A stretch of 31,590 nucleotides of DNA from a virus, in IMG/VR virus record IMGVR_UViG_3300019476_000022; one strand, given 5' to 3'. Shown here in pieces: positions 1 through 31,590 of the stretch (the stretch's first letter is position 1; each line of letters starts with the position of its first letter). The translations under genes and the position numbers were made by a program. The notes under the pieces are model-generated. The model worked only from the letters and a program-made list of their open reading frames with translations, made no database searches and was not told the origin of the DNA.

Positions 1-95
1 GCCTCGGACTCAGCTTCATCATTGGTATTTTCAACTTCTGGCTCGACAACCTCGTCGGCAGACTCCACTACTGGTGTCTCTGGCTCAGCAGGCTC
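1..95. repeat. Terminal direct repeat, identical to 31496-31590 (assembly overlap of a circular or circularly permuted genome)
   Basis: Base-by-base comparison of the two contig ends: gcctcggactcagcttcatc...ctggctcagcaggctc is present at both. Confidence 0.95.
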
Positions 96-257
96 GCTTT
101 CAGCCTCAGTCTCGGTGGTGTCGGCCGTGCCTTTGGCTGCCGAAATACTCACGTACGGCCCACTATGCGCTCCCTCCTTCACAAAAACATAATATCCCTC
201 TGGTGTTCGGCGAATCTCGCCGCCCTTATAATTCTGTACTTTTTCAGTGTTTTCCAT
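1..257 (-). CDS. 5' part (85 codons) of a 100-aa protein that wraps the contig junction: small N-terminal domain plus a strongly acidic T/E/A/P-rich tail
   Basis: ATG at 257-255 lies 6 nt downstream of AGGAGG (plus cctcct 263-268). Hand translation: MENTEKVQNYKGGEIRRTPEGYYVFVKEGAHSGPYVSISAAKGTADTTETEAESEPAEPETPVVESADEVVEPEVENTNDEAESE... The ORF track misses it because it crosses position 1. Confidence 0.75.
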   Translation of the reverse strand, partial: MENTEKVQNYKGGEIRRTPEGYYVFVKEGAHSGPYVSISAAKGTADTTETEAESEPAEPETPVVESADEVVEPEVENTNDEAESE

Positions 258-352
258 ATGAATCCTCCTGATTATAAATGTACAGATTAGGCGATATTAA
301 CGTTATTTGCCGTGTAGAATTAAGACATCATCGCGTAAGTAAAAGCGTAATC

Positions 353-386
353 AAAAACCCGCACGAGACTTCTAGCCAAGTGCGGG
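353..386 (-). terminator. Rho-independent terminator closing the late operon
   Basis: Stem cccgcac (358-364) / gtgcggg (380-386) with a 15-nt loop. It is followed on the minus strand by UUUUU (353-357) and lies directly after gene 404-583. Confidence 0.6.
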
Positions 387-403
387 GTAACATTTATAGT
401 ATA

Positions 404-583
404 CTACTTATTCTCAATCCTATGAACAAGCTCTTCCTTATTCCCGCCAAGTTCTTCATATTTCTTGGCAAGGCTATCTACTTGCTCTGGGATCTCTTTG
501 AGGTTATTGCGGCGGTTAATCTCGTCCATAATAACTTGTAGTTGTTCTTGTAGTTGTTCTTCAGTTAAAGTTTTGTAGTCCAT
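404..583 (-). CDS. Small (59 aa) coiled-coil protein, last gene of the late operon (below the ORF-track size cut-off)
   Basis: ATG at 583 with GAAAGGAG 5-6 nt upstream (plus 588-595). Hand translation: MDYKTLTEEQLQEQLQVIMDEINRRNNLKEIPEQVDSLAKKYEELGGNKEELVHRIENK*, stop at 404-406. Confidence 0.6.
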   Translation of the reverse strand: MDYKTLTEEQLQEQLQVIMDEINRRNNLKEIPEQVDSLAKKYEELGGNKEELVHRIENK

Positions 584-621
584 ATAACTCCTTTCGTTAG
601 ATATTCTAGGCTTTTCTCTGG

Positions 622-1284
622 TTAATTACTCACCCCCCCCGGCAATATGGTCGGCCAATCATTTTCGGTGACATACGATATGTTAAACGAGCATGATTCG
701 CCTTTCGTCCAGGTGTCGTAGCCAGGAATAGCTCTAATCGATAAGTCAAACGAATTGCTTTGCGAGTAGATACTGCCAAGCTGAGCGCCGTTGACATTCA
801 CGAGACCGTGCCCCGTACCCCAACCTGAGTTGCGGAAGCCGTTCGGGAACATGTTATCTTTAAGGATACGTTTCAGCACGGCATGCGCACCTGTACCAGG
901 GTTATCGCCCACTTTTAATCCGCTTGAGCGGAGGTATACTACTTTGTTGATACGCCGCAGCTGGATATTGCTGGTGCTATCCCAAAATGGGTCGAGTAAG
1001 GCTTTGATATCGCGCCAGCCAGTATCGCCATACAAGACAGTCCAGCCGGTATTGCCAGTGCCCCACATCTTAATCCACTTCACAGCGCCGCAGGTGACGG
1101 CTGTGTCGGTGTAAGTGCTTCCTGGCGGGGCTGAGACGACGCCGTTGGGCTGACCGGTGCCGTAGCGGTGCCCAACATCGCCAATCTTCACGTACGAGAG
1201 GTCAGGGGCGAGCCGAATGACATTCTTGTTGGTCTTGTTGTTCCAAACTAAGAACTCATTGCCTCCACCGATACCGAACGACAT
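622..1284 (-). CDS. Tail fibre / receptor-binding-type protein (globular tip domain)
   Basis: Motifs GSTYTDT..GAVKWIKMWGTGNTGW..GDTGWRDI resemble fibre or minor-tail tip domains of Gram-positive siphophages. GAGGTG RBS present; follows fibre-like gene 1380-1814. Confidence 0.5.
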   Translation of the reverse strand: MSFGIGGGNEFLVWNNKTNKNVIRLAPDLSYVKIGDVGHRYGTGQPNGVVSAPPGSTYTDTAVTCGAVKWIKMWGTGNTGWTVLYGDTGWRDIKALLDPFWDSTSNIQLRRINKVVYLRSSGLKVGDNPGTGAHAVLKRILKDNMFPNGFRNSGWGTGHGLVNVNGAQLGSIYSQSNSFDLSIRAIPGYDTWTKGESCSFNISYVTENDWPTILPGGVSN

Positions 1285-1379
1285 ATCAGTTACACCTCTA
1301 ATCTGTCTGAATCCTAATACGCCGATGTCCGATTCAACGCTTATGGTGTGTTTGGCTTTTATCGTGCCAGAGCCGACCT

Positions 1380-1814
1380 TTACGCCTCGTTAGGGGCATC
1401 GCCCTCAATAACGATCGGTGTCGTACTTTTCGTCGTGTTGTTAACACTGAGCCTGCCGATAGTGTTTGCCGCGATGGTGTACGTGTTAGCGTTTTTCGCT
1501 ACTAAGGAAAGCGATGGGTTCTCTTTACTAATGGCGATATCACCAGTGAACGTATCGCCAGCTTTGTCAGCTTTCTTATTCAGTTCAGTAGTAAGCTCTG
1601 CATTATCTGAGATATCTCCACTAATACTTCCCCAGGCGGCAGAGCCGCCTCCGCCGGGATTACTTACGTAAGTTTTAACCGTTTCTCTGGCAATCTCCAG
1701 ACTCACATATGGCCCGTAAGCAACATTATTTTTGATCCAAACAAACAGTTCGCCTCGTTTGCCTTTGTCGATTACGTAAATCACCCCTCCCTCGTAGTCT
1801 TCTATTTTTTCCAT
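1380..1814 (-). CDS. Tail fibre-like protein with a small N-terminal module shared with the junction-spanning protein
   Basis: AAWGSISGDISDNAELTTELNKKADKAGDTFTGDI is a classic fibre motif (WG.I.G...L..KA..GDTFTG). The N-terminus MEKIEDYEGGVIYV...AYGPYVSLEIA parallels MENTEKVQNYKGGEIRR...HSGPYVSISAA. Confidence 0.55.
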   Translation of the reverse strand: MEKIEDYEGGVIYVIDKGKRGELFVWIKNNVAYGPYVSLEIARETVKTYVSNPGGGGSAAWGSISGDISDNAELTTELNKKADKAGDTFTGDIAISKENPSLSLVAKNANTYTIAANTIGRLSVNNTTKSTTPIVIEGDAPNEA

Positions 1815-1862
1815 ATCACACCTTCGTTCTCCCTGATTTGATGATTATTATTTTTCTATAAC

Positions 1863-2990
1863 TCATGGATTAATCACTTGTCCTGGATAAATCAACCCGC
1901 GATTTTTAATTCCATTACGCTCAGCTAGTCTCTGTGCATATCCATTATTACCAAACAACCCGTTTGTACCATGCCAGCCGTTTCGTAGAGCAATATGACC
2001 TAAAGTGTCCCCACGCCTCACAACGTACGTAGACGAGCTTACGTACGGTCTCGGAGTTATCCTACTGTATGTTTGTGGCACCCGTGCATTAACTGCTGCC
2101 TGTACTTCAGCTGGGTTGTAACCAGCGGCTTGTAACCGTGCTACGCGGTCATTGCCGCTACCGTACACACCCTTCAATACATCAGCTACCACTTGATCGT
2201 TCACTGCTTTCGAACTGGCTGCTGGAGCGGCTGGCGCGCTAGCAGTACTACCATTTGCCCAGATATTCGGTCGGTAGTAGCCGATAATCGAGTTGCGATA
2301 GCCGCCTAGATCCATCAAGTTAAACGCGTTACCGACGTAGATATTGCCACTGCCTTGGTTCTGTCCAAAGAATTTCCCTTGGTAATACATAGCCACATGT
2401 CCATACGTTCCGCCGCCGAAGATTGCCCAGTCGCCATCTTTCATACCAGCTTGCCCAGAGTGCCAGGTAAAGCCTAACGCTTGGATTTCACCCACTTGGT
2501 TTGCATAGCCACTCGCACCACCTGTTCTAGTTGCTACGACACGCCCACTCAAGCTGAACATGAACTGCTTGAAACCTGCCACACACTGTAGGCCATATCC
2601 CTCGTTAAAGCCGCGACCGTTCATCGCGTTGACAAAAGCAGTAGGGCTCGACATGTCAGTCTTGTAATACACACCCGATCCCATTTGTGCCAGCTCTTTA
2701 TCTGGCGCTTCGCAGCCCGAGCCTGAATCCTGCGGTACATCTAGTCCCATAATGCCAGCAATCGCTGATTCACGCTTTTTCGCTAATTCACACAAAGCCT
2801 TTTCTTGTGCCTTAGAATATTTAGCTTTTGAGCCATCAAGCGTAATGCTGCCATCTTCGGCTTGTTTGCCAGCAAGCAAAAACGTTGCCGACAGCACTGC
2901 CACCACCAGTAGTAGCACGACAGCCAAATGCGCCGACGCGTAGCTCAGTACCTTGCCAATAGACTTTGATATTGCATTTTTCAGCTTCAT
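1863..2990 (-). CDS. Endolysin: N-terminal signal-anchor TM + CHAP peptidase + CW_7-like motif + C-terminal LysM
   Basis: TM segment HLAVVLLLVVAVLSATFLLAG. CHAP Cys in GLQCVAGFKQF and His in YGHVAMYY. VLKGVYGSGNDRVARLQAAGYNPAEVQAAVNA is CW_7-like. YVVRRGDTLGHIA...GLIYPGQVINP is LysM-like. Confidence 0.85.
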   Translation of the reverse strand: MKLKNAISKSIGKVLSYASAHLAVVLLLVVAVLSATFLLAGKQAEDGSITLDGSKAKYSKAQEKALCELAKKRESAIAGIMGLDVPQDSGSGCEAPDKELAQMGSGVYYKTDMSSPTAFVNAMNGRGFNEGYGLQCVAGFKQFMFSLSGRVVATRTGGASGYANQVGEIQALGFTWHSGQAGMKDGDWAIFGGGTYGHVAMYYQGKFFGQNQGSGNIYVGNAFNLMDLGGYRNSIIGYYRPNIWANGSTASAPAAPAASSKAVNDQVVADVLKGVYGSGNDRVARLQAAGYNPAEVQAAVNARVPQTYSRITPRPYVSSSTYVVRRGDTLGHIALRNGWHGTNGLFGNNGYAQRLAERNGIKNRGLIYPGQVINP

Positions 2991-2992
2991 GA

Positions 2993-3223
2993 TTATTTCT
3001 CCTCAGTCTCAGCCTTTTTGCGGTCTTGATTGTTCTTCTGGTTGGTTACGCCCAAGAAGTAGACGTTGATACCGCCGGCAAACAGCAGCGCGGTGCTAGT
3101 CAGCTGTTTAGCGATTGCCTGAAACCCCCAGGTGTCGCCCAACCCTTGCACAATAAACGCCGCAAACGATAGTAACCCAACCGCAATTGACAGCTGGCGT
3201 GTGGTTGATGGTTTTAATTTCAT
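2993..3223 (-). CDS. Holin (two TM helices, charged C-terminus)
   Basis: 76 aa. Two hydrophobic helices (LSIAVGLLSFAAFIVQGL; ALLFAGGINVYFLGV) and a KNNQDRKKAETEEK tail. Lies immediately upstream of the endolysin. Confidence 0.6.
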   Translation of the reverse strand: MKLKPSTTRQLSIAVGLLSFAAFIVQGLGDTWGFQAIAKQLTSTALLFAGGINVYFLGVTNQKNNQDRKKAETEEK

Positions 3224-3312
3224 ATTTGACCTCCTTGATCATTATTGTTACTTCGAAAAATCAGGTAGAGAACAAGAGTGGTTGTTGTGATAGATAGTAA
3301 TAACGGTATCAT
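3220..3312 (-). CDS. 30-aa single-TM peptide, translationally coupled on both sides (missed by ORF track)
   Basis: Hand translation: MIPLLLSITTTTLVLYLIFRSNNNDQGGQI*. ATGA overlap with the stop of 3309-3692 and ATGA overlap with the holin start. Confidence 0.45.
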   Translation of the reverse strand: MIPLLLSITTTTLVLYLIFRSNNNDQGGQI

Positions 3313-3692
3313 CGCTTCGCCTCCAAATGCTGCATATCCTCTTTCAACGTCGTCACCGTTTGGCTTTGTTTAACCATCACGCCTGTCAGATACACGGCGA
3401 ACGCCACGAGTGCCACTGCAAATACCTTTGCCAAACCGCTGGTGATAAGCCGCCAAAAGTTCAGCAGGCTTTCCACATCGCTGCGCGGCAAATATTTCTG
3501 CTCCACCTCATCTGTAAGCTCTTTTTTATATTGTTCAAGCTCAGCTCGAGAAATATTACCGCTCAATATATTCTCTATTCGCTCAAGCGCTGCTGTATGC
3601 CTATCAACACCATCCTTAATGTACTCTACCTTAGCCTGTAAGGCGCCGAATTCTTTTGCTGATACGTCTGTGTTACTCATCTCACTTACCAC
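3309..3692 (-). CDS. Lysis-cassette membrane protein (N-terminal coiled coil, C-terminal TM; XhlA-like architecture)
   Basis: 127 aa with a coiled-coil-like N-terminal half and TM helix GLAKVFAVALVAFAVYLTGVMV. First gene of the lysis block. Confidence 0.45.
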   Translation of the reverse strand: MVSEMSNTDVSAKEFGALQAKVEYIKDGVDRHTAALERIENILSGNISRAELEQYKKELTDEVEQKYLPRSDVESLLNFWRLITSGLAKVFAVALVAFAVYLTGVMVKQSQTVTTLKEDMQHLEAKR

Positions 3693-6157: not shown

Positions 6158-7044
6158 TACGCCACTCCCGTGTAGCCGTTATACCACTCAACGATAGCCG
6201 TGCCAGTATCAGTGCTGTTTGATGTGTTGAAAATCAGTTCGTTCAGCCCTGGCACTAAACGCCAATATTGACTGCTGGTGAGGTTGTTATCGATACCCAC
6301 GCCATTCAGAGTCACCTCTCGGTTGTATGTATCAAATACGATTGTGTCGTTGTCTGTTGTGCTGATATTCAGCGCCAGAACCTCGCCAGTCGTCTGATTG
6401 GACACGGTCGGATTGGTTACCTTGCCGGTAATTGTGATTGTCGGCCAAACATAGGTGTTGCCATCATTTATGGCGTGATTCAGTCCTCCGCCAGCTACCC
6501 AGTGCAAGCCGTCACGCTCCCAAAGCATACCTGTCGGGCTCCACAATAAACCACCGTCACGCGGACGCTCTAGCGTGATTCGCTGTGCTGCGCCGTCGGT
6601 GTAGTCATACATCCGCGGATCACCCGCTACCAGCTCGATGTCATAGTCGGCAATGAGCGGCCACTCAATCTTTGGATCGAGAGGCTGTGTCAGTTTGGCA
6701 ATGGTCTGATAAACACGTCCGGTTGGCGTGAACAGCCGCACCCGCAACTTGTCACGAATCTTGATAGTTCTGGCAATTTTTGCCATCTCGGCGTGCATCT
6801 CGGCCAGTTTTCCGTCATGCTCCACCAACACGAAAAAACTCAGCGGTATTTGTCGCACACCATAAAACTGCTCATCTACGCTACCGCCATCCGCACCAGA
6901 GAACACATACTGGCTGTTGCGTACGTCAGGGTCGCCAAAACCTTTCAGTGGCGGCGTTAGGTGTGATAACCCTTGTTTACTGCCTGCCAAAAACACGCTC
7001 TCGTTGGTGCGCATATTAGTGATCTGTACGTCATATGTTCTCAT
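6157..7044 (-). CDS. Distal tail protein (Dit-like)
   Basis: 295 aa, the first gene after the tape measure, which is the canonical siphovirus position. Confidence 0.6.
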   Translation of the reverse strand: MRTYDVQITNMRTNESVFLAGSKQGLSHLTPPLKGFGDPDVRNSQYVFSGADGGSVDEQFYGVRQIPLSFFVLVEHDGKLAEMHAEMAKIARTIKIRDKLRVRLFTPTGRVYQTIAKLTQPLDPKIEWPLIADYDIELVAGDPRMYDYTDGAAQRITLERPRDGGLLWSPTGMLWERDGLHWVAGGGLNHAINDGNTYVWPTITITGKVTNPTVSNQTTGEVLALNISTTDNDTIVFDTYNREVTLNGVGIDNNLTSSQYWRLVPGLNELIFNTSNSTDTGTAIVEWYNGYTGVA

Positions 7045-12931: not shown

Positions 12932-14824
12932 TTAGGCTACATGTTTAATAGCCACTGCTGATGCGATGCCGCTCAAGCCACCACCTGCGAAGACTTCCTG
13001 CAAGTACTGCTGCTTGTTGTTCTCCAGCTTAAAGTTGCTGAACGCCTCGATTGAGTTGTCGCCAACAACCTTGTACTTATTCAATACGACCAGATACGCG
13101 TCGTTGTCGGCGTCGTTGGTGTCGTTGAACCATTGCGGTACAAATTTACCGGCAAGCTCCAAGTCCTCAAGAATGCTGACTCCTGGCGTGTACAGCATGT
13201 GTCCGTCGCTACCACGCTCGTCTTTCAAAGCGGTCAGGTAGCCGCGCTTAGCGATGATATACACGTCGCCCTCAGCCTCGATTAGGTCGCGTGCGTTCAA
13301 AATAGAAGTGCGGCGGCTCTCTTTGGCTTTCGGTGTGTAGGTTTTAGCGAATACGTTACCAGCTTTGGCGTCGTCTTTGACAGAGATAAACTCTTTAATC
13401 TTGTCATCAGCAGTAGCTTCGCGCCCATCGCCGATAATAGCAGCACGCTCCATGCTTGCAACGATACGCTTCGGCAACTCTGTCAAGACATACTTCAAGA
13501 TTGATCCAGTGCTTCGGTTCTTGCGCAATGTTTCCTTGTCAAGGTCGATACGCGAGTAGACATATTGACCGTTAATGACGCGGTTATCCAGAACAATATT
13601 AGCCTCTTTCTTGGTTTTGCCGGCTTTGTGACCATACGCGCCATCGGTGTTGGTGTCCCAGGCGGTGTTGTAAGCGTCAAGTCCAGTCCTGTCGAACAGG
13701 TTCCAGATTTGACCGCCCGCCTTAAACGCACTCTCGATCGCCTCGACGACTGGTGTCGGCAAGACCTTTTCAGGGTTTGTTACGCCCATGGTTGTTTTCA
13801 AATGGTCTTCCCACGCCGAACGAATGTCGCTCGTCTCTGCACCTGCGTTTTTGACAAGCACATTAGCAAAATCAATTAATGCCTTTGGTGTGTCCAGATA
13901 ATTCGTAGCAACAGTCGTTGCAACAGCTGCTGGATCAGCTGGTTCTTTAACTTGCATTTTTGCAATATCTTCCGGTTTCATTTCCGTATCCTCCTCAGGA
14001 TTGTTATCAGTTGGTTCTCCCGGCTCTGATTGCTCAGCTTCGTCAGTAGGCTCAGCCTCTGGCACGGCTTCCGGTGCCGCTGGTTCGTCAGTCTTCGTTT
14101 CAGGTTCAGTCGTCGTTTCCTCGGCTGGCTCTGCCGTCTTAGCTGCTTCCGCCTCTGCTTTCGCCTTGATTTGTTCAACCAGGCTCTGCATTGGCTTGGC
14201 ATCTGCCTGCTTTACGGCCGACATGCTAAACGCAAAGTTCATACCCATTGCATTTTGCACGCCCTCGTCTTGCTTTTGCTTCTCTGGTGCTTCAGACACC
14301 TCATCGGCAAAACCAAGCTCGACAGCCTTATCGGCAAGCATCCACGTTTCCGCTTCCAGCAACTCAGCGATTTTATCCTCGTCAAGCCCTGTCCGTTTGG
14401 CGTAGATAGGCGTGATGCCCTCCTCGATTTTCAACAGCACATCTTTGGCTTTCTCCATGTCATCAACCGTGCCCATCGCGCAAACAGACGGACGGTGAAT
14501 CATGATCATTGAGCCTGGCGACATGATAATCTTGTCGCCCGCCATCGCAATTACTGATGCAATCGACGCCGCTAAACCATCAACTCTGACAGTGACATTT
14601 CCGTTATGATTCACAAGTGCGTTATAGATTGCCAAGCCTGCGAACACGTCGCCGCCGGGGCTGTTGATAACAACTGTCAAATCGCCCGCATGCTGCTTGA
14701 GTTCTTCGCGAAAGAGGTCGGGTGTGACTTCGTCGCCCCACCAGGTATCACTCGCGATAGGCCCGTCAAGTATAAGCTCTTGATTATTCGATGAAACGGA
14801 ATTGCTCCACTTCCAGAACTTCAT
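12932..14824 (-). CDS. Fusion of ClpP-family prohead protease, acidic linker and HK97-type major capsid protein
   Basis: The N-terminus VVINSPGGDVFAGLAIYNAL...DGLAASIASVIAMAGDKIIMSPGSMIMIHRPS is a ClpP/S14-like Ser protease. Next comes an E/P/T/A-rich acidic stretch. The C-terminal roughly 300 aa are capsid-sized and sit at the capsid position. Confidence 0.8.
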   Translation of the reverse strand: MKFWKWSNSVSSNNQELILDGPIASDTWWGDEVTPDLFREELKQHAGDLTVVINSPGGDVFAGLAIYNALVNHNGNVTVRVDGLAASIASVIAMAGDKIIMSPGSMIMIHRPSVCAMGTVDDMEKAKDVLLKIEEGITPIYAKRTGLDEDKIAELLEAETWMLADKAVELGFADEVSEAPEKQKQDEGVQNAMGMNFAFSMSAVKQADAKPMQSLVEQIKAKAEAEAAKTAEPAEETTTEPETKTDEPAAPEAVPEAEPTDEAEQSEPGEPTDNNPEEDTEMKPEDIAKMQVKEPADPAAVATTVATNYLDTPKALIDFANVLVKNAGAETSDIRSAWEDHLKTTMGVTNPEKVLPTPVVEAIESAFKAGGQIWNLFDRTGLDAYNTAWDTNTDGAYGHKAGKTKKEANIVLDNRVINGQYVYSRIDLDKETLRKNRSTGSILKYVLTELPKRIVASMERAAIIGDGREATADDKIKEFISVKDDAKAGNVFAKTYTPKAKESRRTSILNARDLIEAEGDVYIIAKRGYLTALKDERGSDGHMLYTPGVSILEDLELAGKFVPQWFNDTNDADNDAYLVVLNKYKVVGDNSIEAFSNFKLENNKQQYLQEVFAGGGLSGIASAVAIKHVA

Positions 14825-27078: not shown

Positions 27079-27256
27079 ATGGTTGATAGATTTGACTAAC
27101 AGAGGTAGTCGCTGTTTATATCATGTAAGAATATTTCGTGATTTATATAAATCACTGAAAAATATTACATGATAGAGCAAACCGCTCAACCATGAATCTT
27201 GTTTTTCCAGTGATGTTAAAGGCCATTGATGGCGGTGGTCGCCGCTCATCTGAACT
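27052..27256 (-). ncRNA. Candidate ~200-nt structured RNA between promoter P2 and the 27052-27078 terminator
   Basis: Bounded by a consensus promoter and a textbook terminator. Contains a 52-bp imperfect palindrome (27121-27172). No RBS-preceded ORF is present. Confidence 0.4.
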
Positions 27257-27362: not shown

Positions 27363-28229
27363 TTATGATGTGGCGCTAAATTTCAATCTTTCAAAGCACG
27401 CTGCCATCTGGCCATCCAATCCATGCAAATATCGCTGCGTGATCACCGCATTTGAATGACCGAGCATCTCCTGCGATTCCATCAGTGTCGCTCCGTTTCG
27501 CTGAATGTCCGTTGCGAACGAGTGTCTGAGTGAGTGCGGGTGAAAATTGCGAAAACCCGCCAAGTAAAACGGCTGCCGCATTAAATGGCGCAACTCCTCG
27601 ACACTGAGCAATGTTCCGTTCGGCTTCTGCCATAAATAATCGTCAATACGCCGACTAACGATCCACTGTGTCAACCTTTCGCGAGCTTCTCGGCTCATAT
27701 GCACCTCCCGCCGTCTGCCACCCTTGCCAGTAAATACAATCATTCTGTCGGTGATATTTAATAGCCGCAGATTCCGCAGCTCAGTGATCCGTAAGCCGCA
27801 GTCGAACGATAATTTAATCAGTAGCCACTGTATCTGATTGCAATAACTCAACACCTGCTCGATTTGCTCCCTTGTGTAGAAAACTCGGCGAATTGGCTCG
27901 GTCTCCTTTTGTTTGACAATGTGGCGAATCTTTAATTCAGGCATCTCCACGCCCATATCTCTGAAATATCTGAACATTGCCACCACATGGCAAATTCGCG
28001 TATTGATAGTCCGGCTATTCAGACCTCGCCGTGCCTGCTCTGTAATCCAGTCGTTCACCTGCTGTGTCGTGATCTCGCTCAGACTGCCAGCTGGCACGCT
28101 AGCTCTGAAATCTCGCATCACCCAGCGTTTAGCGCTCAATGTTTGGCGGCTCATCCGGCGCGTAAACTCGCAGTACTCCAGATATTCGTCAAAAGCTTGC
28201 TCGATTGGCATAATTGTATTTTTCGTCAT
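27363..28229 (-). CDS. XerC/D-like tyrosine recombinase (integrase and/or invertase)
   Basis: 288 aa. GLRITELRNLRL (Arg), HPHSLRHSFAT (H-x-x-R), LGHSNAVITQRYLH (His/Tyr). Confidence 0.9.
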   Translation of the reverse strand: MTKNTIMPIEQAFDEYLEYCEFTRRMSRQTLSAKRWVMRDFRASVPAGSLSEITTQQVNDWITEQARRGLNSRTINTRICHVVAMFRYFRDMGVEMPELKIRHIVKQKETEPIRRVFYTREQIEQVLSYCNQIQWLLIKLSFDCGLRITELRNLRLLNITDRMIVFTGKGGRRREVHMSREARERLTQWIVSRRIDDYLWQKPNGTLLSVEELRHLMRQPFYLAGFRNFHPHSLRHSFATDIQRNGATLMESQEMLGHSNAVITQRYLHGLDGQMAACFERLKFSATS

Positions 28230-28254
28230 GATTTTAACTCCACTTAAAAAACCA

Positions 28255-28308
28255 GTTCTATATAGAATTGCTTATAACGAACCTTAAAAGCTCAATTGTA
28301 TATAGAAC
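28255..28308 (-). promoter_or_regulatory. Inverted repeat GTTCTATATA(G/C)AATTG (28255-28270 / 28293-28308) in the recombinase leader: attenuator hairpin plus U6, or a protein or recombinase binding site
   Basis: 15 of 16 complementary positions with a 22-nt loop. On the minus strand it is followed by UGGUUUUUU, then GGAG and ATG at 28229. Each arm contains the palindrome TT(C/G)TATATAGAA. Confidence 0.5.
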
Positions 28309-29040: not shown

Positions 29041-29069
29041 ATTATAGCAAACTGATTTTGCTTTGTCAA
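29041..29069 (-). promoter_or_regulatory. Promoter P1: perfect TTGACA-N17-(TGC)TATAAT
   Basis: -35 at 29064-29069 and -10 at 29041-29046 (reverse complement), with an extended -10 TG. Confidence 0.75.
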
Positions 29070-29070
29070 C

Positions 29071-29099
29071 AAAAACCCGCCCCCATTTTCAGGGGACGG
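29071..29099 (-). terminator. Terminator of the P3 operon, abutting the P1 -35
   Basis: Minus strand: CCGTCCCC-tgaaaat-GGGGCGG, then GTTTTTG running into TTGACA. Confidence 0.6.
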
Positions 29100-29142
29100 A
29101 AAGGTCACATGGATGCTTAAACCATGCGTTTGCAGTTTATCA

Positions 29143-29840: not shown

Positions 29841-29924
29841 TTATTTTCTAGCTTTAGTTTTCTTAATCAACTCAAGCTTTATGGTTATTTTAAGTCTGAA
29901 AAGTTGTAATGATGTTTTAAGCAT
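29841..29924 (-). CDS. Possible 27-aa upstream ORF in the P3 leader
   Basis: GAAAGG, 8 nt, then ATG at 29924. Translation: MLKTSLQLFRLKITIKLELIKKTKARK*. Confidence 0.25.
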   Translation of the reverse strand: MLKTSLQLFRLKITIKLELIKKTKARK

Positions 29925-29990
29925 TTTTATGACCTTTCTTCTGCCGCCGAATTGTTAATTGTTGCTTGGTTGCCCCTCAACCATGTCTTT

Positions 29991-30019
29991 AGTATAGCAA
30001 ACGTGTTGCCGTATGTCAA
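29991..30019 (-). promoter_or_regulatory. Promoter P3: TTGACA-N17-(TGC)TATACT
   Basis: -35 at 30014-30019 and -10 at 29991-29996 (reverse complement). A 10-bp perfect inverted repeat (29999-30008 / 30017-30026) overlaps the -35. Confidence 0.7.
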
Positions 30020-30103
30020 CACGTTTTACCAAAAAAGTCAGAGATTTTTCGACATTTTTCATCACCCATGTTAAACCTGTGGAAAACTCACAATATTACG
30101 CAG

Positions 30104-30121
30104 TATAGTCCTACCACGACA
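30104..30121 (+). repeat. Left inverted repeat of the fibre-tip segment (TATAGTCCTACCACGACA)
   Basis: Perfect reverse complement of 30831-30848. Confidence 0.95.
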
Positions 30122-30482
30122 TCTCAACTCGCCATCTCTGTTAGCGTTCAGTGCTGACGGTGTCAGCCAGAGTATTTCAGGTAATATTTTGGTGCAGGCT
30201 GGCTGGGTGCAGTTCTGGGGTAATAACACAAAAAGACAGCCAGTGCCTGTTGTTTTTCCAAAGCAATTCAAGCAGGTTTTTTCAATGTCACCGACCTTAA
30301 TTGGCTACAAGACAGGCAGTAAAGCTACCAGCATTAGCGAATTTAATCAGGTGATCGGCAGTGGACTGAATATTGAGTCTGGCGTTGTTACGAACACCGG
30401 TACGACACTCAACGCTTCAACAACTGGCATATTTGGTGGGGCTTGGCATGGGATTTCATGGGTGGCAATTGGCGTTGCCTAA
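30122..30482 (+). CDS. Silent alternative fibre C-terminus (119 codons; no start or RBS of its own)
   Basis: The frame is open from 30075 with no ATG/GTG/TTG before the TTG at 30189. It encodes LNSPSLLAFSADGVSQSISGNILVQAGWVQFWGNN..VVFPKQF..ISWVAIGVA*, a recognisable fibre-tip signature (..QxG..V.FP..F....W.AIG). Confidence 0.7.
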
Positions 30483-31447
30483 GACTTCTTAATATACTGA
30501 ATTGTCACAAATGAAGTCTTATAACCGGATTGATCTGCGTACGTCTGGATATTGACGCTGCTATTATCAACGTAAACCGTTACTGTATAAGCTTGCTGGT
30601 CAGCAGCGTGTGGCAGGTTAATTGTTGCGCCAATACTGTCTTCTTTCGCAATGCCGCGAATATTGATGACCATGCCAAGATTTGTGATACCATGCGGCAC
30701 GGTTGTTTTGCCGGCGATCTTCAGGCCGCCCATCGCAAATGTCTTCTGGTAAATTGTGCGGCCGTCAATCCACTTCATGCCGGTGTCGACTTCTGACGTG
30801 CTGCGGTCGCCGCGGGCTGCTGGCGACAAGTGTCGTGGTAGGACTATATCATTGCCAAGTGCGTCAGAGCTAATCACGCCGTTTTTGAACATTTCAGCCC
30901 TGTTAATCCGTCCGTCAGCCAACGTGGCTGGATTACGCCTATCAGTGATGACAGAGTCGAGAATTGTCGTCGTGCCAGCGTTTACACGTATTTCGGCGAT
31001 TACTTCATATGGATTAGACGCACCAATTTTCGCCTTAATTTGTGATGGTGTAGGTGCACTTGGGTTGGTTGCTGGCGTGCCTGGAACGACAATGGCCTTT
31101 GTGCGATTCTCGTTGTTAGCGACGGCCTGCGATGCAGCCACGTTTGTGTCGATGTAGATCACCACCGCGTCAATTCGTGGATTGGCGCTATTTGCCGTGG
31201 TAACGCTCGCCTGAACAGGCTGCGTACTTAAATTGCTCACCGGGAATGTCGCCGACATAGCGTCACGCACCAGTAAGTCGTCAGGTATACCATTCTCGCC
31301 GCCGATCAGCACATTCATGCCGACAGGGCTGGACTGACGTACTCTAAAGCCGCTAATCCACGAGCCGACAAAAGCATTGCCGAGTGCGTGGAATAGTGCG
31401 CTATCAGTGGTGCGGCCACCGTTGCTATTAGGAAAGCCTAGTGCCAT
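30479..31447 (-). CDS. Receptor-binding tail fibre protein (constant aa 1-206 plus currently expressed tip aa 207-322)
   Basis: 322 aa. C-terminus GMKWIDGRTIYQKTF...HGITNLG...VTIQYIKKS resembles common fibre-tip domains. The ATG at 31447 follows the stop of the acidic-tail gene by 2 nt. Confidence 0.7.
   Translation of the reverse strand: MALGFPNSNGGRTTDSALFHALGNAFVGSWISGFRVRQSSPVGMNVLIGGENGIPDDLLVRDAMSATFPVSNLSTQPVQASVTTANSANPRIDAVVIYIDTNVAASQAVANNENRTKAIVVPGTPATNPSAPTPSQIKAKIGASNPYEVIAEIRVNAGTTTILDSVITDRRNPATLADGRINRAEMFKNGVISSDALGNDIVLPRHLSPAARGDRSTSEVDTGMKWIDGRTIYQKTFAMGGLKIAGKTTVPHGITNLGMVINIRGIAKEDSIGATINLPHAADQQAYTVTVYVDNSSVNIQTYADQSGYKTSFVTIQYIKKS
30831..30848 (-). repeat. Right inverted repeat of the fibre-tip segment, inside the fibre gene (codons D200-H206)
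   Basis: TGTCGTGGTAGGACTATA is the reverse complement of 30104-30121. Confidence 0.95.
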
Positions 31448-31449
31448 AA

Positions 31450-31590
31450 TTATTCTTCATCAGCGCTTTCAGCCTCAGTCTCGGTGGTGTCGGCCGCCTC
31501 GGACTCAGCTTCATCATTGGTATTTTCAACTTCTGGCTCGACAACCTCGTCGGCAGACTCCACTACTGGTGTCTCTGGCTCAGCAGGCTC
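31450..31590 (-). CDS. 3' end of the junction-spanning acidic-tail protein gene (continues from 1-257)
   Basis: Hand translation: ..DEAESEAADTTETEAESADEE*, with stop TAA at 31450-31452. Confidence 0.75.
   Translation of the reverse strand, partial: EPAEPETPVVESADEVVEPEVENTNDEAESEAADTTETEAESADEE
31496..31590. repeat. Terminal direct repeat, identical to 1-95
   Basis: See the feature at 1-95. Confidence 0.95.

What the first reader, a model, noticed from the sequence alone, without database searches (positions are those of the whole stretch)
30104..30848. Tail-fibre tip inversion switch bounded by in-frame 18-bp inverted repeats
TATAGTCCTACCACGACA at 30104-30121 recurs as a perfect reverse complement at 30831-30848. 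The right copy lies inside fibre gene 30479-31447 and encodes IVLPRH (aa 201-206). The left copy lies in an open plus-strand frame. That frame is open from 30075, has no ATG/GTG/TTG before 30189, and has no RBS. It encodes the same IVLPRH in the same codon phase (ata gtc cta cca cga ca|N). Inverting 30104-30848 would therefore replace the present 116-aa C-terminus (..KWIDGRTIYQKTF..VTIQYIKKS) with a 119-aa one (LNSPSLLAFSADG..ILVQAGWVQFWGNN..VVFPKQF..ISWVAIGVA). The replacement carries the signature of a different, widespread fibre-tip fold. The two tips are convergent and their stop codons overlap (30479-30482). Just inside the repeats both arms still encode S-P (TCGCCA), offset by a 3-nt indel. 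This is the logic of the Mu G / P1 C host-range switches. It differs in being minimal (no tip-chaperone genes) and in sitting in a genome with no serine invertase.
Basis: partly seen in the sequence, partly recalled or inferred. Interest (0 to 1): 0.9.

Follow-up and report, generated by a model that had tools for sequence, protein, structure and literature searches.

The report
Flip switch for phage fibre tips
A temperate phage of the tiny oral bacterium Saccharibacteria (TM7) carries a 745-base DNA segment that can flip between two 18-base inverted repeats, giving its tail fibre one of two different tips; this type of switch is known in other phages but, as far as I could find, has not been reported for phages of this bacterial group.

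Summary

- **The repeat.** A perfect 18-bp inverted repeat, TATAGTCCTACCACGACA, bounds 30104-30848. One copy lies in codons 201-206 (IVLPRH) of the 322-aa fibre gene. The other heads a promoter-less, start-less frame in the same phase.
- **Both orientations exist in relatives.** Their breakpoints overlap by exactly the 18-mer. Most relatives carry a third site and a third silent tip, and all four isomers of that three-site shufflon are seen. Two contigs that are 99.97% identical differ only by one inversion.
- **Sequence conservation.** The 18-mer is invariant in 137 copies apart from one A/G position, while its flanks diverge.
- **The tips.** The constant 207 residues are joined to at least eight tip types. 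The silent tip is an H-type lectin fold like pyocin and phage fibre tips.
- **The host.** It is Candidatus Saccharibacteria, including a prophage in the complete genome of Nanosynbacter sp. BB002.
- **The recombinase.** No serine invertase is present. The only site-specific recombinase is a XerC/D-like tyrosine integrase 1.9 kb away, next to attP. Which enzyme does the flipping is not established.
- **Limits.** Evidence for this exact strain is comparative only.
- **Closest known.** The Rin shufflon of bifidobacterial prophages. I class this as a new variant of a known kind.

The parts
30104..30121 (+). Left recombination site (18-mer TATAGTCCTACCACGACA). It heads the silent tip and sits on the integrase side.
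30831..30848 (-). Right recombination site, the same 18-mer on the minus strand. It lies inside the fibre gene and encodes IVLPRH, aa 201-206.
30122..30482 (+). Silent tip B (119 aa after IVLPRH, ..GWVQFWGNN..VVFPKQF..ISWVAIGVA). H-type lectin / gp53-like fibre-tip fold. It has no start codon before 30189 and no promoter of its own.
30479..30830 (-). Expressed tip A (116 aa, ..KWIDGRTIYQKTF..VTIQYIKKS), a beta-sandwich domain.
30849..31447 (-). Constant N-terminal part of the fibre (aa 1-200). It is 96-99% identical in relatives that carry at least 8 different tips.
31450..31590 (-). 3' part of a small acidic-protein gene (about 100 aa) directly upstream of the fibre gene. In three-site relatives it inverts together with the constant part.
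1..258 (-). 5' part of the same acidic-protein gene (ATG at 258). Bases 1-95 repeat 31496-31590 because the contig is circular.
271..300 (-). Promoter-like site TTAATA-18-TATAAT upstream of the acidic gene and the fibre gene. It lies inside the stretch homologous to the invertible segment M of relatives.
27363..28229 (-). XerC/D-like tyrosine recombinase without an arm-binding domain (288 aa; the R, K, HxxR, H and Y catalytic residues are present). It is the prophage integrase and the only site-specific recombinase in the genome, so it is a candidate invertase.
27138..27155 (.). attP core, an 18-bp perfect palindrome GTGATTTATATAAATCAC. Homology between the window and integrated prophages ends here.

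Best explanation
The segment 30104-30848 is a programmed, reversible DNA inversion switch in a temperate siphovirus-like phage of Candidatus Saccharibacteria.

How it works: recombination between the two 18-bp sites, which lie in inverted orientation, flips the 709-bp cassette. The cassette holds two convergent, promoter-less tip modules. The crossover lies in codons 201-206 of the fibre gene, in the linker just before the C-terminal receptor-binding domain. The constant part (aa 1-200, transcribed with a small acidic-protein gene from a promoter-like site at 271-300) is therefore joined in frame either to tip A (322 aa, the present state) or to tip B (325 aa, an H-type lectin tip).

What is shown:
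- the sites, the shared reading frame, and both orientations in relatives with breakpoints exact to the base;
- invariance of the 18-mer;
- the fold of the tips;
- the host.

What is inferred:
- that the flip is site-specific rather than driven by homology;
- that it changes adsorption specificity;
- the identity of the enzyme. My best guess is a tyrosine recombinase. The candidates are the phage's own XerC/D-like integrase at 27363-28229 (about 0.45) or a host Xer-type enzyme acting in trans (about 0.3).

The window is the two-site form. Most relatives add a third site and a third silent tip on the other side of the promoter-plus-constant segment, so that this segment itself flips between tip cassettes.
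For: **Relatives in both orientations, with exact breakpoints.** L022 pieces overlap by the 18-mer. Census by the tip joined to the constant part: 19 contigs with tip A; 15 with tip B or its variant B', plus one with another tip type; 8 with tip C or its variant C'.

**All four isomers of the three-site system occur**.

**Near-identical genomes differ only by inversion.** L030 and L031 are 99.97% identical over 6185 bp and differ only by inversion of the 1072-bp segment between two sites.

**The site is conserved as DNA.**
- The 18-mer is invariant in 137 copies except for A/G at position 16. Nucleotide diversity is 0.4-0.7 immediately on either side, and the 5' flanks fall into three unrelated classes.
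- The core nonamer TCCTACCAC occurs in 89 loci almost only at the sites.

**The crossover point.** The G at position 16 stays with tip A in 8 of the 12 contigs that carry it, whether that tip is expressed or silent. It is therefore not tied to the constant part, which places the crossover 5' of it.

**Modular tips.** At least 8 tip types are fused at the same junction to a 96-99% identical N-terminus.

**Tip folds.**
- Tips fold with pLDDT 71-91, starting at about aa 215-220.
- Tip B matches R1/R2 pyocin fibre tips, Helix pomatia agglutinin and phage tailspike C-termini at probability 1.0.
- A homologous tip (C', P0052) passes the Pfam H_lectin cut-off.

**It is a tail protein.** In a sister family the fibre gene sits directly after the tail genes, and its N-terminal part hits a PHROG 'minor tail protein' family at 7.6e-7.

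**Distant relatives.** Relatives with only 35% N-terminal identity have their own inverted repeats at the same place and also occur in both orientations.

**Not an assembly artefact.** An 18-bp repeat is shorter than typical assembly k-mers (this is my inference). The three-site locus is present in the finished genome of Nanosynbacter sp. BB002.
Against: - There is no direct evidence that this particular strain flips. The exact 325-aa hybrid is absent from a collection of about 15 billion proteins, although the exact 322-aa protein is present on several contigs (four were read). The strain-specific flipped junction is absent from JGI metagenome contigs.
- No reads could be mapped, so heterogeneity within one population is not shown. 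The different orientations come from different samples.
- The recombinase is not identified. The integrase's attP core (GTGATTTATATAAATCAC) bears no clear resemblance to the 18-mer.
- A sister family has a 40%-identical integrase that targets a tRNA gene, yet it still uses a site with the same TCCTACCAC core. This argues weakly against the integrase as invertase.
- The N-terminal domain was modelled with low confidence (pLDDT below 40). Its role as a tail attachment domain rests on weak PHROG hits and on gene order in relatives.
Confidence: 0.85

Rival explanations
1. The switch is the same, but the invertase is encoded by the host. A Saccharibacteria Xer-type or other tyrosine recombinase acts in trans on the 18-bp sites, and the phage integrase only integrates and excises.
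For: - The attP core and the 18-mer are unrelated in sequence.
- Phage families with very different integrases and att sites (an AT-rich palindrome versus a tRNA gene) share the TCCTACCAC core of the inversion site.
- Many of the contigs showing the different orientations are integrated prophages, cut at or near the integrase end.
- Precedent: an inversion without a flanking recombinase was proposed for a second bifidophage locus (PMC6109161).
Against: - No host recombinase was examined.
- In every family a tyrosine recombinase gene lies within about 1.3-4.3 kb of the cassette.
- A third family, with a 24-27% identical recombinase, has a clearly different site, ACAAGATAGACTTTACGAC. This would fit co-variation with the phage enzyme.
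Confidence: 0.3
2. This is not a programmed switch. Rare homologous or microhomology-mediated recombination, for example by the phage's YqaJ-type exonuclease and annealing protein, occasionally inverts the segment, and the variants seen are fixed lineages.
For: - The phage encodes a YqaJ-like exonuclease and neighbouring recombination genes.
- The orientations were seen in different samples, not within one sample.
- No flipped copy of the window's strain was found.
Against: - Shared homology is only 18 bp, with sharp edges and no tendency to extend, yet it is invariant in 137 copies. This includes silent copies where the first bases code for nothing.
- Genomes that are 99.97% identical differ only by an inversion.
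- All isomers are common, and several of the protein clusters holding each fusion have roughly 90-450 members.
- The silent tips are kept intact and in frame, without promoters, in dozens of genomes.
Confidence: 0.08
3. The protein is not a virion fibre. It would be a prophage-encoded, phase-variable surface lectin of the lysogen (lysogenic conversion) that changes how the epibiont attaches to its own bacterial host.
For: - In the window the gene lies after the lysis cassette, next to the lysogeny module, with its own promoter-like site. This is a typical position for accessory ('moron') genes.
- The N-terminal domain has no strong family assignment.
Against: - The sequence shows no obvious signal peptide or membrane anchor (judged by eye, not tested with a predictor).
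- In the sister family the gene follows the tail genes directly, and its N-terminal part hits a minor-tail-protein family.
- The tip folds match phage and pyocin fibre tips.
- Other tail-like genes also lie after the lysin in the window.
Confidence: 0.06
4. The alternative orientations are assembly artefacts.
For: Metagenome assemblies can mis-join at repeats. Several contigs end 0-106 nt beyond a site.
Against: - An 18-bp repeat is shorter than the usual assembly k-mers, so each junction must be spanned by reads (my inference).
- The same junctions recur in dozens of independent assemblies from IMG/VR, ENA, Logan and NCBI.
- They also occur in a finished 804-kb genome.
Confidence: 0.01

Closest known systems
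Rin shufflon of Bifidobacterium prophages Bb423phi1, Bl157phi1 and Bl30698phi1 (Mavrich et al. 2018, PMC6109161)
   Same: - A temperate siphovirus-type prophage of a human-associated bacterium.
- A constant N-terminal receptor-binding-protein segment is joined, by inversion at short asymmetric in-frame sites, to one of several promoter-less C-terminal modules of about 100 residues.
- The predicted enzyme is a tyrosine recombinase of XerD-like build, without an arm-binding domain.
- The evidence is of the same kind: inversions between related prophages.
   Different: - Rin has a dedicated invertase gene directly flanking the cassettes, distinct from a lambda-type integrase elsewhere in the prophage. 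Here the only recombinase is the integrase itself, three genes away, next to attP.
- The site is 18 bp (TATAGTCCTACCACGACA), not the 11-bp rix (TTCCCTAACCC).
- The tips are H-type lectin and another beta-sandwich, not TP901-1-like heads.
- In three-site relatives the promoter and the constant part lie on an invertible segment between tip cassettes.
- The host is Saccharibacteria.
Gin/G of phage Mu, Cin/C of P1, Min of p15B (serine-invertase tail-fibre switches)
   Same: The logic is the same: inversion swaps the C-terminal part of a tail fibre and so changes host range. Min is also multi-site.
   Different: - Those systems use a serine recombinase, 26-bp sites, a Fis-dependent enhancer, and co-inverted chaperone (U/U') genes.
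- None of these is present here. The site lies inside the coding linker, and no chaperone gene is in the cassette.
R64 shufflon (Rci tyrosine recombinase, sfx sites, pilV tips)
   Same: Tyrosine-recombinase type. The repeat is short, conserved on one side only and unrelated on the other. This resembles the sfx build of a conserved arm plus a non-conserved arm, a comparison I make from my own knowledge of that system. The sites are in frame and swap C-terminal adhesin tips.
   Different: - The target there is a conjugative-pilus adhesin on a plasmid.
- Rci is a dedicated enzyme.
- No Rci-type model was among the ten NCBIfam hits to the window's recombinase.
BV01-like Phocaeicola vulgatus phage tail-fibre shufflon (PMC13596623, preprint 2026)
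   Same: A temperate phage of the human microbiome. Multi-cassette inversions at the 3' end of a carbohydrate-binding tail-fibre gene use short directional motifs. All configurations were seen in populations.
   Different: - That locus is flanked by its own recombinase.
- It uses a 10-bp motif, TGGGAGAACT.
- Its cassettes act by introducing different stop positions.
- The host is in the Bacteroidota.
Campylobacter fetus sap locus, and the vsa/mba inversions of Mollicutes
   Same: This comparison applies to the three-site relatives. A segment carrying the promoter, and here also the constant 5' part, flips between oppositely oriented silent cassettes. Xer-like enzymes drive such inversions in bacteria with reduced genomes (my own knowledge; PMC3047005 was listed but not read).
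   Different: Those are cellular surface-protein systems. The sap system depends on RecA and on long homologous 5' regions.

Membership tests
Phage tail-fibre / receptor-binding-protein inversion switches (general kind) | Inverted repeats bound a segment that holds alternative C-terminal coding modules in frame with a constant N-terminal part | tested here: met
Phage tail-fibre / receptor-binding-protein inversion switches (general kind) | Both orientations are found in nature, with breakpoints at the repeats | tested here: met
   Met in close relatives. Not found for the window's own strain.
Phage tail-fibre / receptor-binding-protein inversion switches (general kind) | The protein is a virion tail fibre and the tips bind receptors | tested here: inconclusive
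   - Tip B and its homologues have the H-type lectin / pyocin-fibre tip fold.
- Tip A resembles fibre C-termini in BFVD.
- The gene follows the tail genes in a sister family.
- There are no virion or binding data.
Rin-type tyrosine-invertase shufflon (bifidophages) | A dedicated tyrosine invertase gene adjoins the cassettes and is distinct from the prophage integrase | tested here: not met
   Only one Phage_integrase-family gene exists among all 105 ORFs. It lies next to attP and the prophage junction, and three ORFs separate it from the cassette.
Rin-type tyrosine-invertase shufflon (bifidophages) | A short asymmetric crossover site lies upstream of every variable module and inside the expressed gene | tested here: met
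Rin-type tyrosine-invertase shufflon (bifidophages) | Sequence homology of the recombinase or the site to Rin / rix | not tested
Serine-invertase switches (Gin/Cin/Pin/Min) | A serine recombinase (Resolvase domain) is encoded next to the segment | tested here: not met
   There is no Resolvase hit in any ORF of 70 aa or more.
Serine-invertase switches (Gin/Cin/Pin/Min) | Co-inverted tail-fibre assembly (chaperone) genes | tested here: not met
   The cassette holds only the two convergent tips, whose stop codons overlap.
R64-type shufflon (Rci/sfx) | An Rci-type recombinase | tested here: not met
   The best NCBIfam hits are the XerC, XerA and XerD models, all far below their cut-offs. No Rci model was among the ten hits.
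R64-type shufflon (Rci/sfx) | A site with one conserved arm and one non-conserved arm | tested here: inconclusive
   An 18-nt block is invariant and the 5' flanks are unrelated. The cleavage positions are unknown.
Tyrosine recombinase (catalytic competence of the candidate enzyme) | The R..K..HxxR..H/W..Y catalytic residues and a core-binding SAM-like domain | tested here: met
   Pfam Phage_integrase 1.6e-28 and Phage_int_SAM_1 7e-7. The motifs GLRITEL, GKGGRRR, HSLRHS, LGHSN and RYLH can be read in the translation.

The most novel reading that the evidence does not exclude
A single XerC/D-like phage recombinase without an arm-binding domain does two jobs. It integrates the prophage at a palindromic AT-rich attP, and it also drives a tail-fibre shufflon at unrelated 18-bp sites.

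In most members of the lineage the shufflon moves the promoter and the constant part of the fibre gene between lectin-tip cassettes on both sides.

Because the host is an obligate epibiont, the alternative lectin tips might let the phage adsorb to different Saccharibacteria strains, or even to the Actinobacteria on which those strains live.
Probability: 0.3. Interest if true: 0.8.

Novelty: new variant of a known kind. Interest (0 to 1): 0.65.

Why it matters
A 2026 paper states that no phage infecting a Candidate Phyla Radiation bacterium had been isolated before its own study (PMC13578794).

This locus shows that a widespread lineage of human oral Saccharibacteria prophages diversifies its receptor-binding tip by programmed inversion. 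At least eight carbohydrate-binding tip types are exchanged at one fixed junction.

It offers three concrete leads:
- surface glycans as the likely receptors on TM7 cells;
- a cultivated lysogen, Nanosynbacter sp. BB002, in which switching can be measured;
- a test case for whether a minimal phage integrase can double as an invertase.

It also matters for host prediction and for assembly, because contigs of these phages tend to break at the sites.

Tried and rejected
**Searches that found nothing useful**
- INPHARED phage records: no DNA or protein match to the fibre or the silent tip. The integrase has only hits of 27% identity or less.
- Sequence search of PDB chains with both tips: nothing.
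- Pfam and NCBIfam on the window's own fibre and silent tip: no hit. Family assignment came only through homologous tips and structure.
- A homologue search with tip A alone returned mostly the silent-copy ORFs of the same phages.
- PHROGs gave nothing for the acidic protein or the small genes between the cassette and int.

**Direct tests for the window's own strain**
- The exact 325-aa hybrid is not in the protein collection.
- The strain-specific flipped junction is not in the JGI metagenome contigs.

**Structure**
- The AlphaFold model of the N-terminal 200 residues has low confidence, so its fold was not used.

**Identifying the invertase**
- I looked for similarity between the attP core, or the half-site motifs derived from the prophage junctions, and the 18-mer or its flanks. 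Only short, unconvincing matches turned up (AATCACG about 20 nt inside the N-terminal coding part; TGATAT abutting the site on the N side). I rejected them as post hoc.

**Contig ends**
- Contig ends cluster 0-106 nt beyond the sites. One 30,360-nt contig lacks about 970 nt of segment M. I considered this as evidence for mixed orientations within a sample. I kept it only as suggestive, because a mixture of strains with different tips would break assemblies at the same place.
Full report
**1. The observation**

The window holds a perfect 18-bp inverted repeat, TATAGTCCTACCACGACA, at 30104-30121 (+) and 30831-30848 (-), with 709 nt between the arms (pair I5).
- Allowing up to three mismatches, these are the only two copies in 31.6 kb. 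The chance expectation is 0.02, and no shuffle of 100 reaches two.
- The right copy lies in the 322-aa ORF 30479-31447 (-) and encodes IVLPRH, aa 201-206.
- The left copy lies in a + frame open from 30075 that reads ..SIVLPRHLNSPSLLAFSADG..ISWVAIGVA*. Its first possible start codon is TTG at 30189.
- Both copies are in the same codon phase. The two tips are convergent and their stop codons overlap.
- Inversion would produce a 325-aa protein.

**2. Context**

The window is a complete circular contig. Its first 95 bases repeat its last 95 exactly.

Nearly all genes are on the minus strand. They are terminase, portal, a ClpP-type protease fused to a capsid domain, tape measure, Dit, further tail genes, an endolysin with CW_7 and LysM domains, then two tail-like genes.

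After a stem-loop followed by a T-run on the minus strand (354-395, read by eye; the terminator scan reported none) comes a promoter-like TTAATA-18-TATAAT at 300-271. Next come a small acidic-protein gene, the fibre gene and the cassette. Then follow a strong promoter-like site, three small genes, a 288-aa tyrosine recombinase (27363-28229) and a perfect 18-bp palindrome at 27138-27155.

Pfam scanning of all 105 ORFs of 70 aa or more finds one Phage_integrase protein. It finds no Resolvase and no IS110/Piv-type enzyme.

**3. Host and lifestyle**

The fibre protein has no relative in INPHARED. It does have 79 related loci in IMG/VR and 5 in bacterial genomes, all Candidatus Saccharibacteria MAGs.
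- A 98%-identical N-terminus occurs in the finished 804-kb genome of Candidatus Nanosynbacter sp. BB002 (CP146064.1). There the prophage is followed, after the recombinase gene, by hisS, trigger factor, thyA, folA and clpP.
- Homology between the window and integrated copies stops at the palindrome GTGATTTATATAAATCAC. Beyond it the flanks differ between contigs.

So the palindrome is the attP core, the recombinase is the prophage integrase, and the window is the excised or replicating form.

**4. The decisive comparison**

In the relatives the N-terminal 200 residues are 96-99% identical. What follows the 18-mer differs between contigs.
- 19 IMG/VR contigs have N->tipA with tip B reversed, as in the window.
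- 15 have N->tipB or its variant B' in frame, with tip A reversed (one contig ends before the silent tip). One further contig has another tip type in this position.
- In L022 the blastn pieces against the window are q5858-6617 (window 31590-30831), q6600-7344 (window 30104-30848, inverted relative to the flanks) and q7327-10087 (window 30121-27363). Neighbouring pieces overlap by exactly the 18 nt of the repeat.

**5. A three-site shufflon in most relatives**

Most close relatives carry a third copy of the 18-mer. It lies about 1.05 kb upstream of the one in the fibre gene, on the opposite strand, and heads a third silent tip (tip C or its variant C').

Eight contigs have N->tipC, with the A/B cassette now lying upstream. 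This arrangement arises if the 1072-bp segment M flips between the first and second site. Segment M carries about 130 nt of upstream DNA with the promoter-like site, the acidic-protein gene and the constant part of the fibre gene.
- All four isomers expected from three sites are present among the contigs.
- L030 and L031, from different samples, are 99.97% identical over 6185 bp. They differ only by inversion of segment M, with breakpoints overlapping by the site.
- BB002 has three sites and is in the N->tipB state.
- The window, L001, L002 and L006 have only two sites, and the window holds no remnant of tip C.

**6. The site as a DNA element**

- Across 137 copies the 18-mer is invariant except for A/G at position 16. 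Nucleotide diversity just outside it is 0.4-0.7 on both sides.
- The 5' flanks fall into three unrelated classes: the N-terminal coding side, the integrase side and the lysis side. The shared homology is therefore only the 18-mer, plus a conserved T three bases downstream.
- The core nonamer TCCTACCAC occurs in the 89 loci almost only at the sites.
- The G at position 16 stays with tip A in 8 of the 12 contigs that carry it, whether that tip is expressed or silent. It is therefore not tied to the constant part, which places the crossover 5' of that position. This is an inference.

A short block that is conserved on one side only, with an unrelated other side, resembles the sfx sites of the R64 shufflon. 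That comparison rests on my own knowledge and was not tested.

**7. More distant relatives**

Phages whose N-terminal domain is only 35% identical, or unrelated, carry homologous A and B tips. Their tips are flanked by their own inverted repeats: CAATCCTACCACAGAA, GATGGTTCAATCCTACC, AATATAGATTTTACGACAATGCC and ACAAGATAGACTTTACGAC. These phages also occur in both orientations.

In one such family the fibre gene follows the tail genes directly. Its N-terminal part hits a PHROG 'minor tail protein' family at 7.6e-7. This supports the reading as a tail fibre.

**8. The tips**

The protein search found 250 relatives. The constant part is joined at the same junction to at least eight tip types, giving proteins of 317-341 aa.
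- Tips B, B', C and C' align with each other, with invariant columns.
- Tip C' (P0052) passes the Pfam H_lectin cut-off (1.7e-8). Tip B' (P0043) comes close to the cut-off for Gp53-like_C.
- AlphaFold models are poor for the N-terminal 200 residues but confident for the tips: pLDDT 74-91 from about aa 215 in N-tipA, and 71-88 from about aa 220 in N-tipB. The crossover therefore lies in the linker just before an independently folding domain.
- The tip B model matches R1 and R2 pyocin fibre tips, Helix pomatia agglutinin, SLL-2, discoidin and the C-termini of phage phi297 and LKA1 tailspikes, all at probability 1.0.
- Tip A has only weak PDB matches. In BFVD it resembles the C-termini of tail-fibre and collagen-like fibre proteins.

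**9. Which enzyme?**

This is not settled.
- The only phage-encoded site-specific recombinase is the XerC/D-like integrase without an arm-binding domain. It has all catalytic residues. In every family a homologue lies within about 1.3-4.3 kb of the cassette.
- Against it: its attP core does not resemble the 18-mer.
- Also against it: the sister family has a 40%-identical integrase that targets a tRNA gene, yet it uses an inversion site with the same TCCTACCAC core.
- A host Xer-type enzyme acting in trans is therefore a serious alternative.
- Homology-driven recombination by the phage's YqaJ-type system is unlikely, given the 18-bp limit and the sharp edges of the conserved block. It is not excluded.

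**10. What is not shown**

- No reads were available.
- The exact hybrid protein of the window's strain is not in the 15-billion-protein collection, while the present form is there on several contigs (four were read).
- The strain-specific flipped junction is not in the JGI metagenome contigs.
- Nine independent contig ends fall 0-106 nt beyond a site. One 30,360-nt contig lacks about 970 nt of segment M. This is what graph branching at the sites would give, but a mixture of strains with different tips would do the same.

**11. Comparison with known systems**

- **Mu G / P1 C / p15B Min.** The logic is the same, but the defining parts are absent: a serine invertase, co-inverted chaperone genes and an enhancer.
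- **Rin shufflon of bifidobacterial prophages.** This is the closest described system. It was reported as the first phage tyrosine-invertase system. It has a constant N-terminal receptor-binding-protein part, several C-terminal modules and an 11-bp site (PMC6109161). It differs in having a dedicated invertase beside the cassettes as well as a separate lambda-type integrase.
- **A second bifidophage inversion.** The same paper notes one without any flanking recombinase and proposes an enzyme acting in trans.
- **BV01-like Phocaeicola phage shufflon.** A further parallel (PMC13596623).

I found no paper describing inversion switches in phages of Saccharibacteria or other Candidate Phyla Radiation bacteria. 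A 2026 paper states that no phage infecting such a bacterium had been isolated before its own study (PMC13578794).

**12. Verdict**

It is a new variant of a known kind. Three features are unusual:
- the host group;
- the absence of a dedicated invertase;
- in most relatives, the placement of the promoter and the constant part on an invertible segment between tip cassettes.

Interest is 0.65.

Noticed in passing
window 1-95 and 31496-31590: There is an exact 95-nt terminal direct repeat, so the window is a complete circular contig of about 31.5 kb. The join falls inside the acidic-protein gene upstream of the fibre gene.
   Followed up: yes
window 27138-27155: An 18-bp perfect palindrome, GTGATTTATATAAATCAC, lies about 210 nt past the 3' end of the integrase gene and marks the attP core. 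Integrated copies read ..GTGATTTATATATATCA and are then followed by different host sequence in each contig. This suggests integration at several AT-rich sites rather than one fixed attB.
   Followed up: partly
L056, L061, L047, L060 (downstream of int): A sister phage family has an integrase only 40% identical to the window's and is integrated at the 3' end of a tRNA gene. L047 carries the partial tRNA copy. So the att specificity differs, although the fibre inversion site is similar.
   Followed up: partly
L050 3274-3302 / 6741-6769, and L056 2572-2856: In that sister family a 29-nt perfect inverted repeat (about 43 nt with the adjoining 17-mer) lies 3.4 kb apart and appears to bracket the lysis genes. 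L050 (N joined to a C-like tip) and L056 (N joined to B') look like inversion isomers across a segment that includes holin and endolysin.
   Followed up: partly
window 12932-14824 (-): A single 630-aa ORF combines an N-terminal ClpP-type head maturation protease with a C-terminal major-capsid-like domain (PHROG and Pfam L_lactis_ph-MCP hits). It looks like a protease-capsid fusion gene.
   Followed up: no
window 29043-29071 and 29993-30021; 29099-29125 and 29912-29938: There are two copies of the same promoter-like box (TTGACA-17-TATACT on the minus strand, 11 of 12 at 30019-29991). A 27-nt imperfect inverted repeat also brackets the 143-aa gene and a 48-aa gene that looks like a ribbon-helix-helix protein by eye. 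This module is replaced by unrelated genes in several relatives (for example L023).
   Followed up: no
window 28229-28308: Two 39-nt direct repeats lie directly upstream of the integrase start codon. Each contains a TTCTATATAGAA-type palindrome. They are possible operator or regulator binding sites.
   Followed up: no
window about 320-3680: The lysis-proximal region is not conserved among otherwise 85-95% identical relatives. Its endolysin here has CW_7 and LysM domains; BB002 has GH25 plus LysM. It behaves as a swappable module. In three-site relatives the third silent tip sits at its edge.
   Followed up: partly
L009, L013: Two relatives lack tip B and the integrase-side site (window 30092-30452 is missing) but keep the upstream tip C and its site. 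This is another two-site form, complementary to the window's.
   Followed up: partly
L012, L019, L027, L036, L041, L048, L083, L136, L138: Nine independent contig ends fall 0-106 nt beyond an 18-mer site. L048 and L136 are the two ends of one 30,360-nt contig that lacks about 970 nt of the invertible segment M. This is what assembly-graph branching at the sites would produce.
   Followed up: partly
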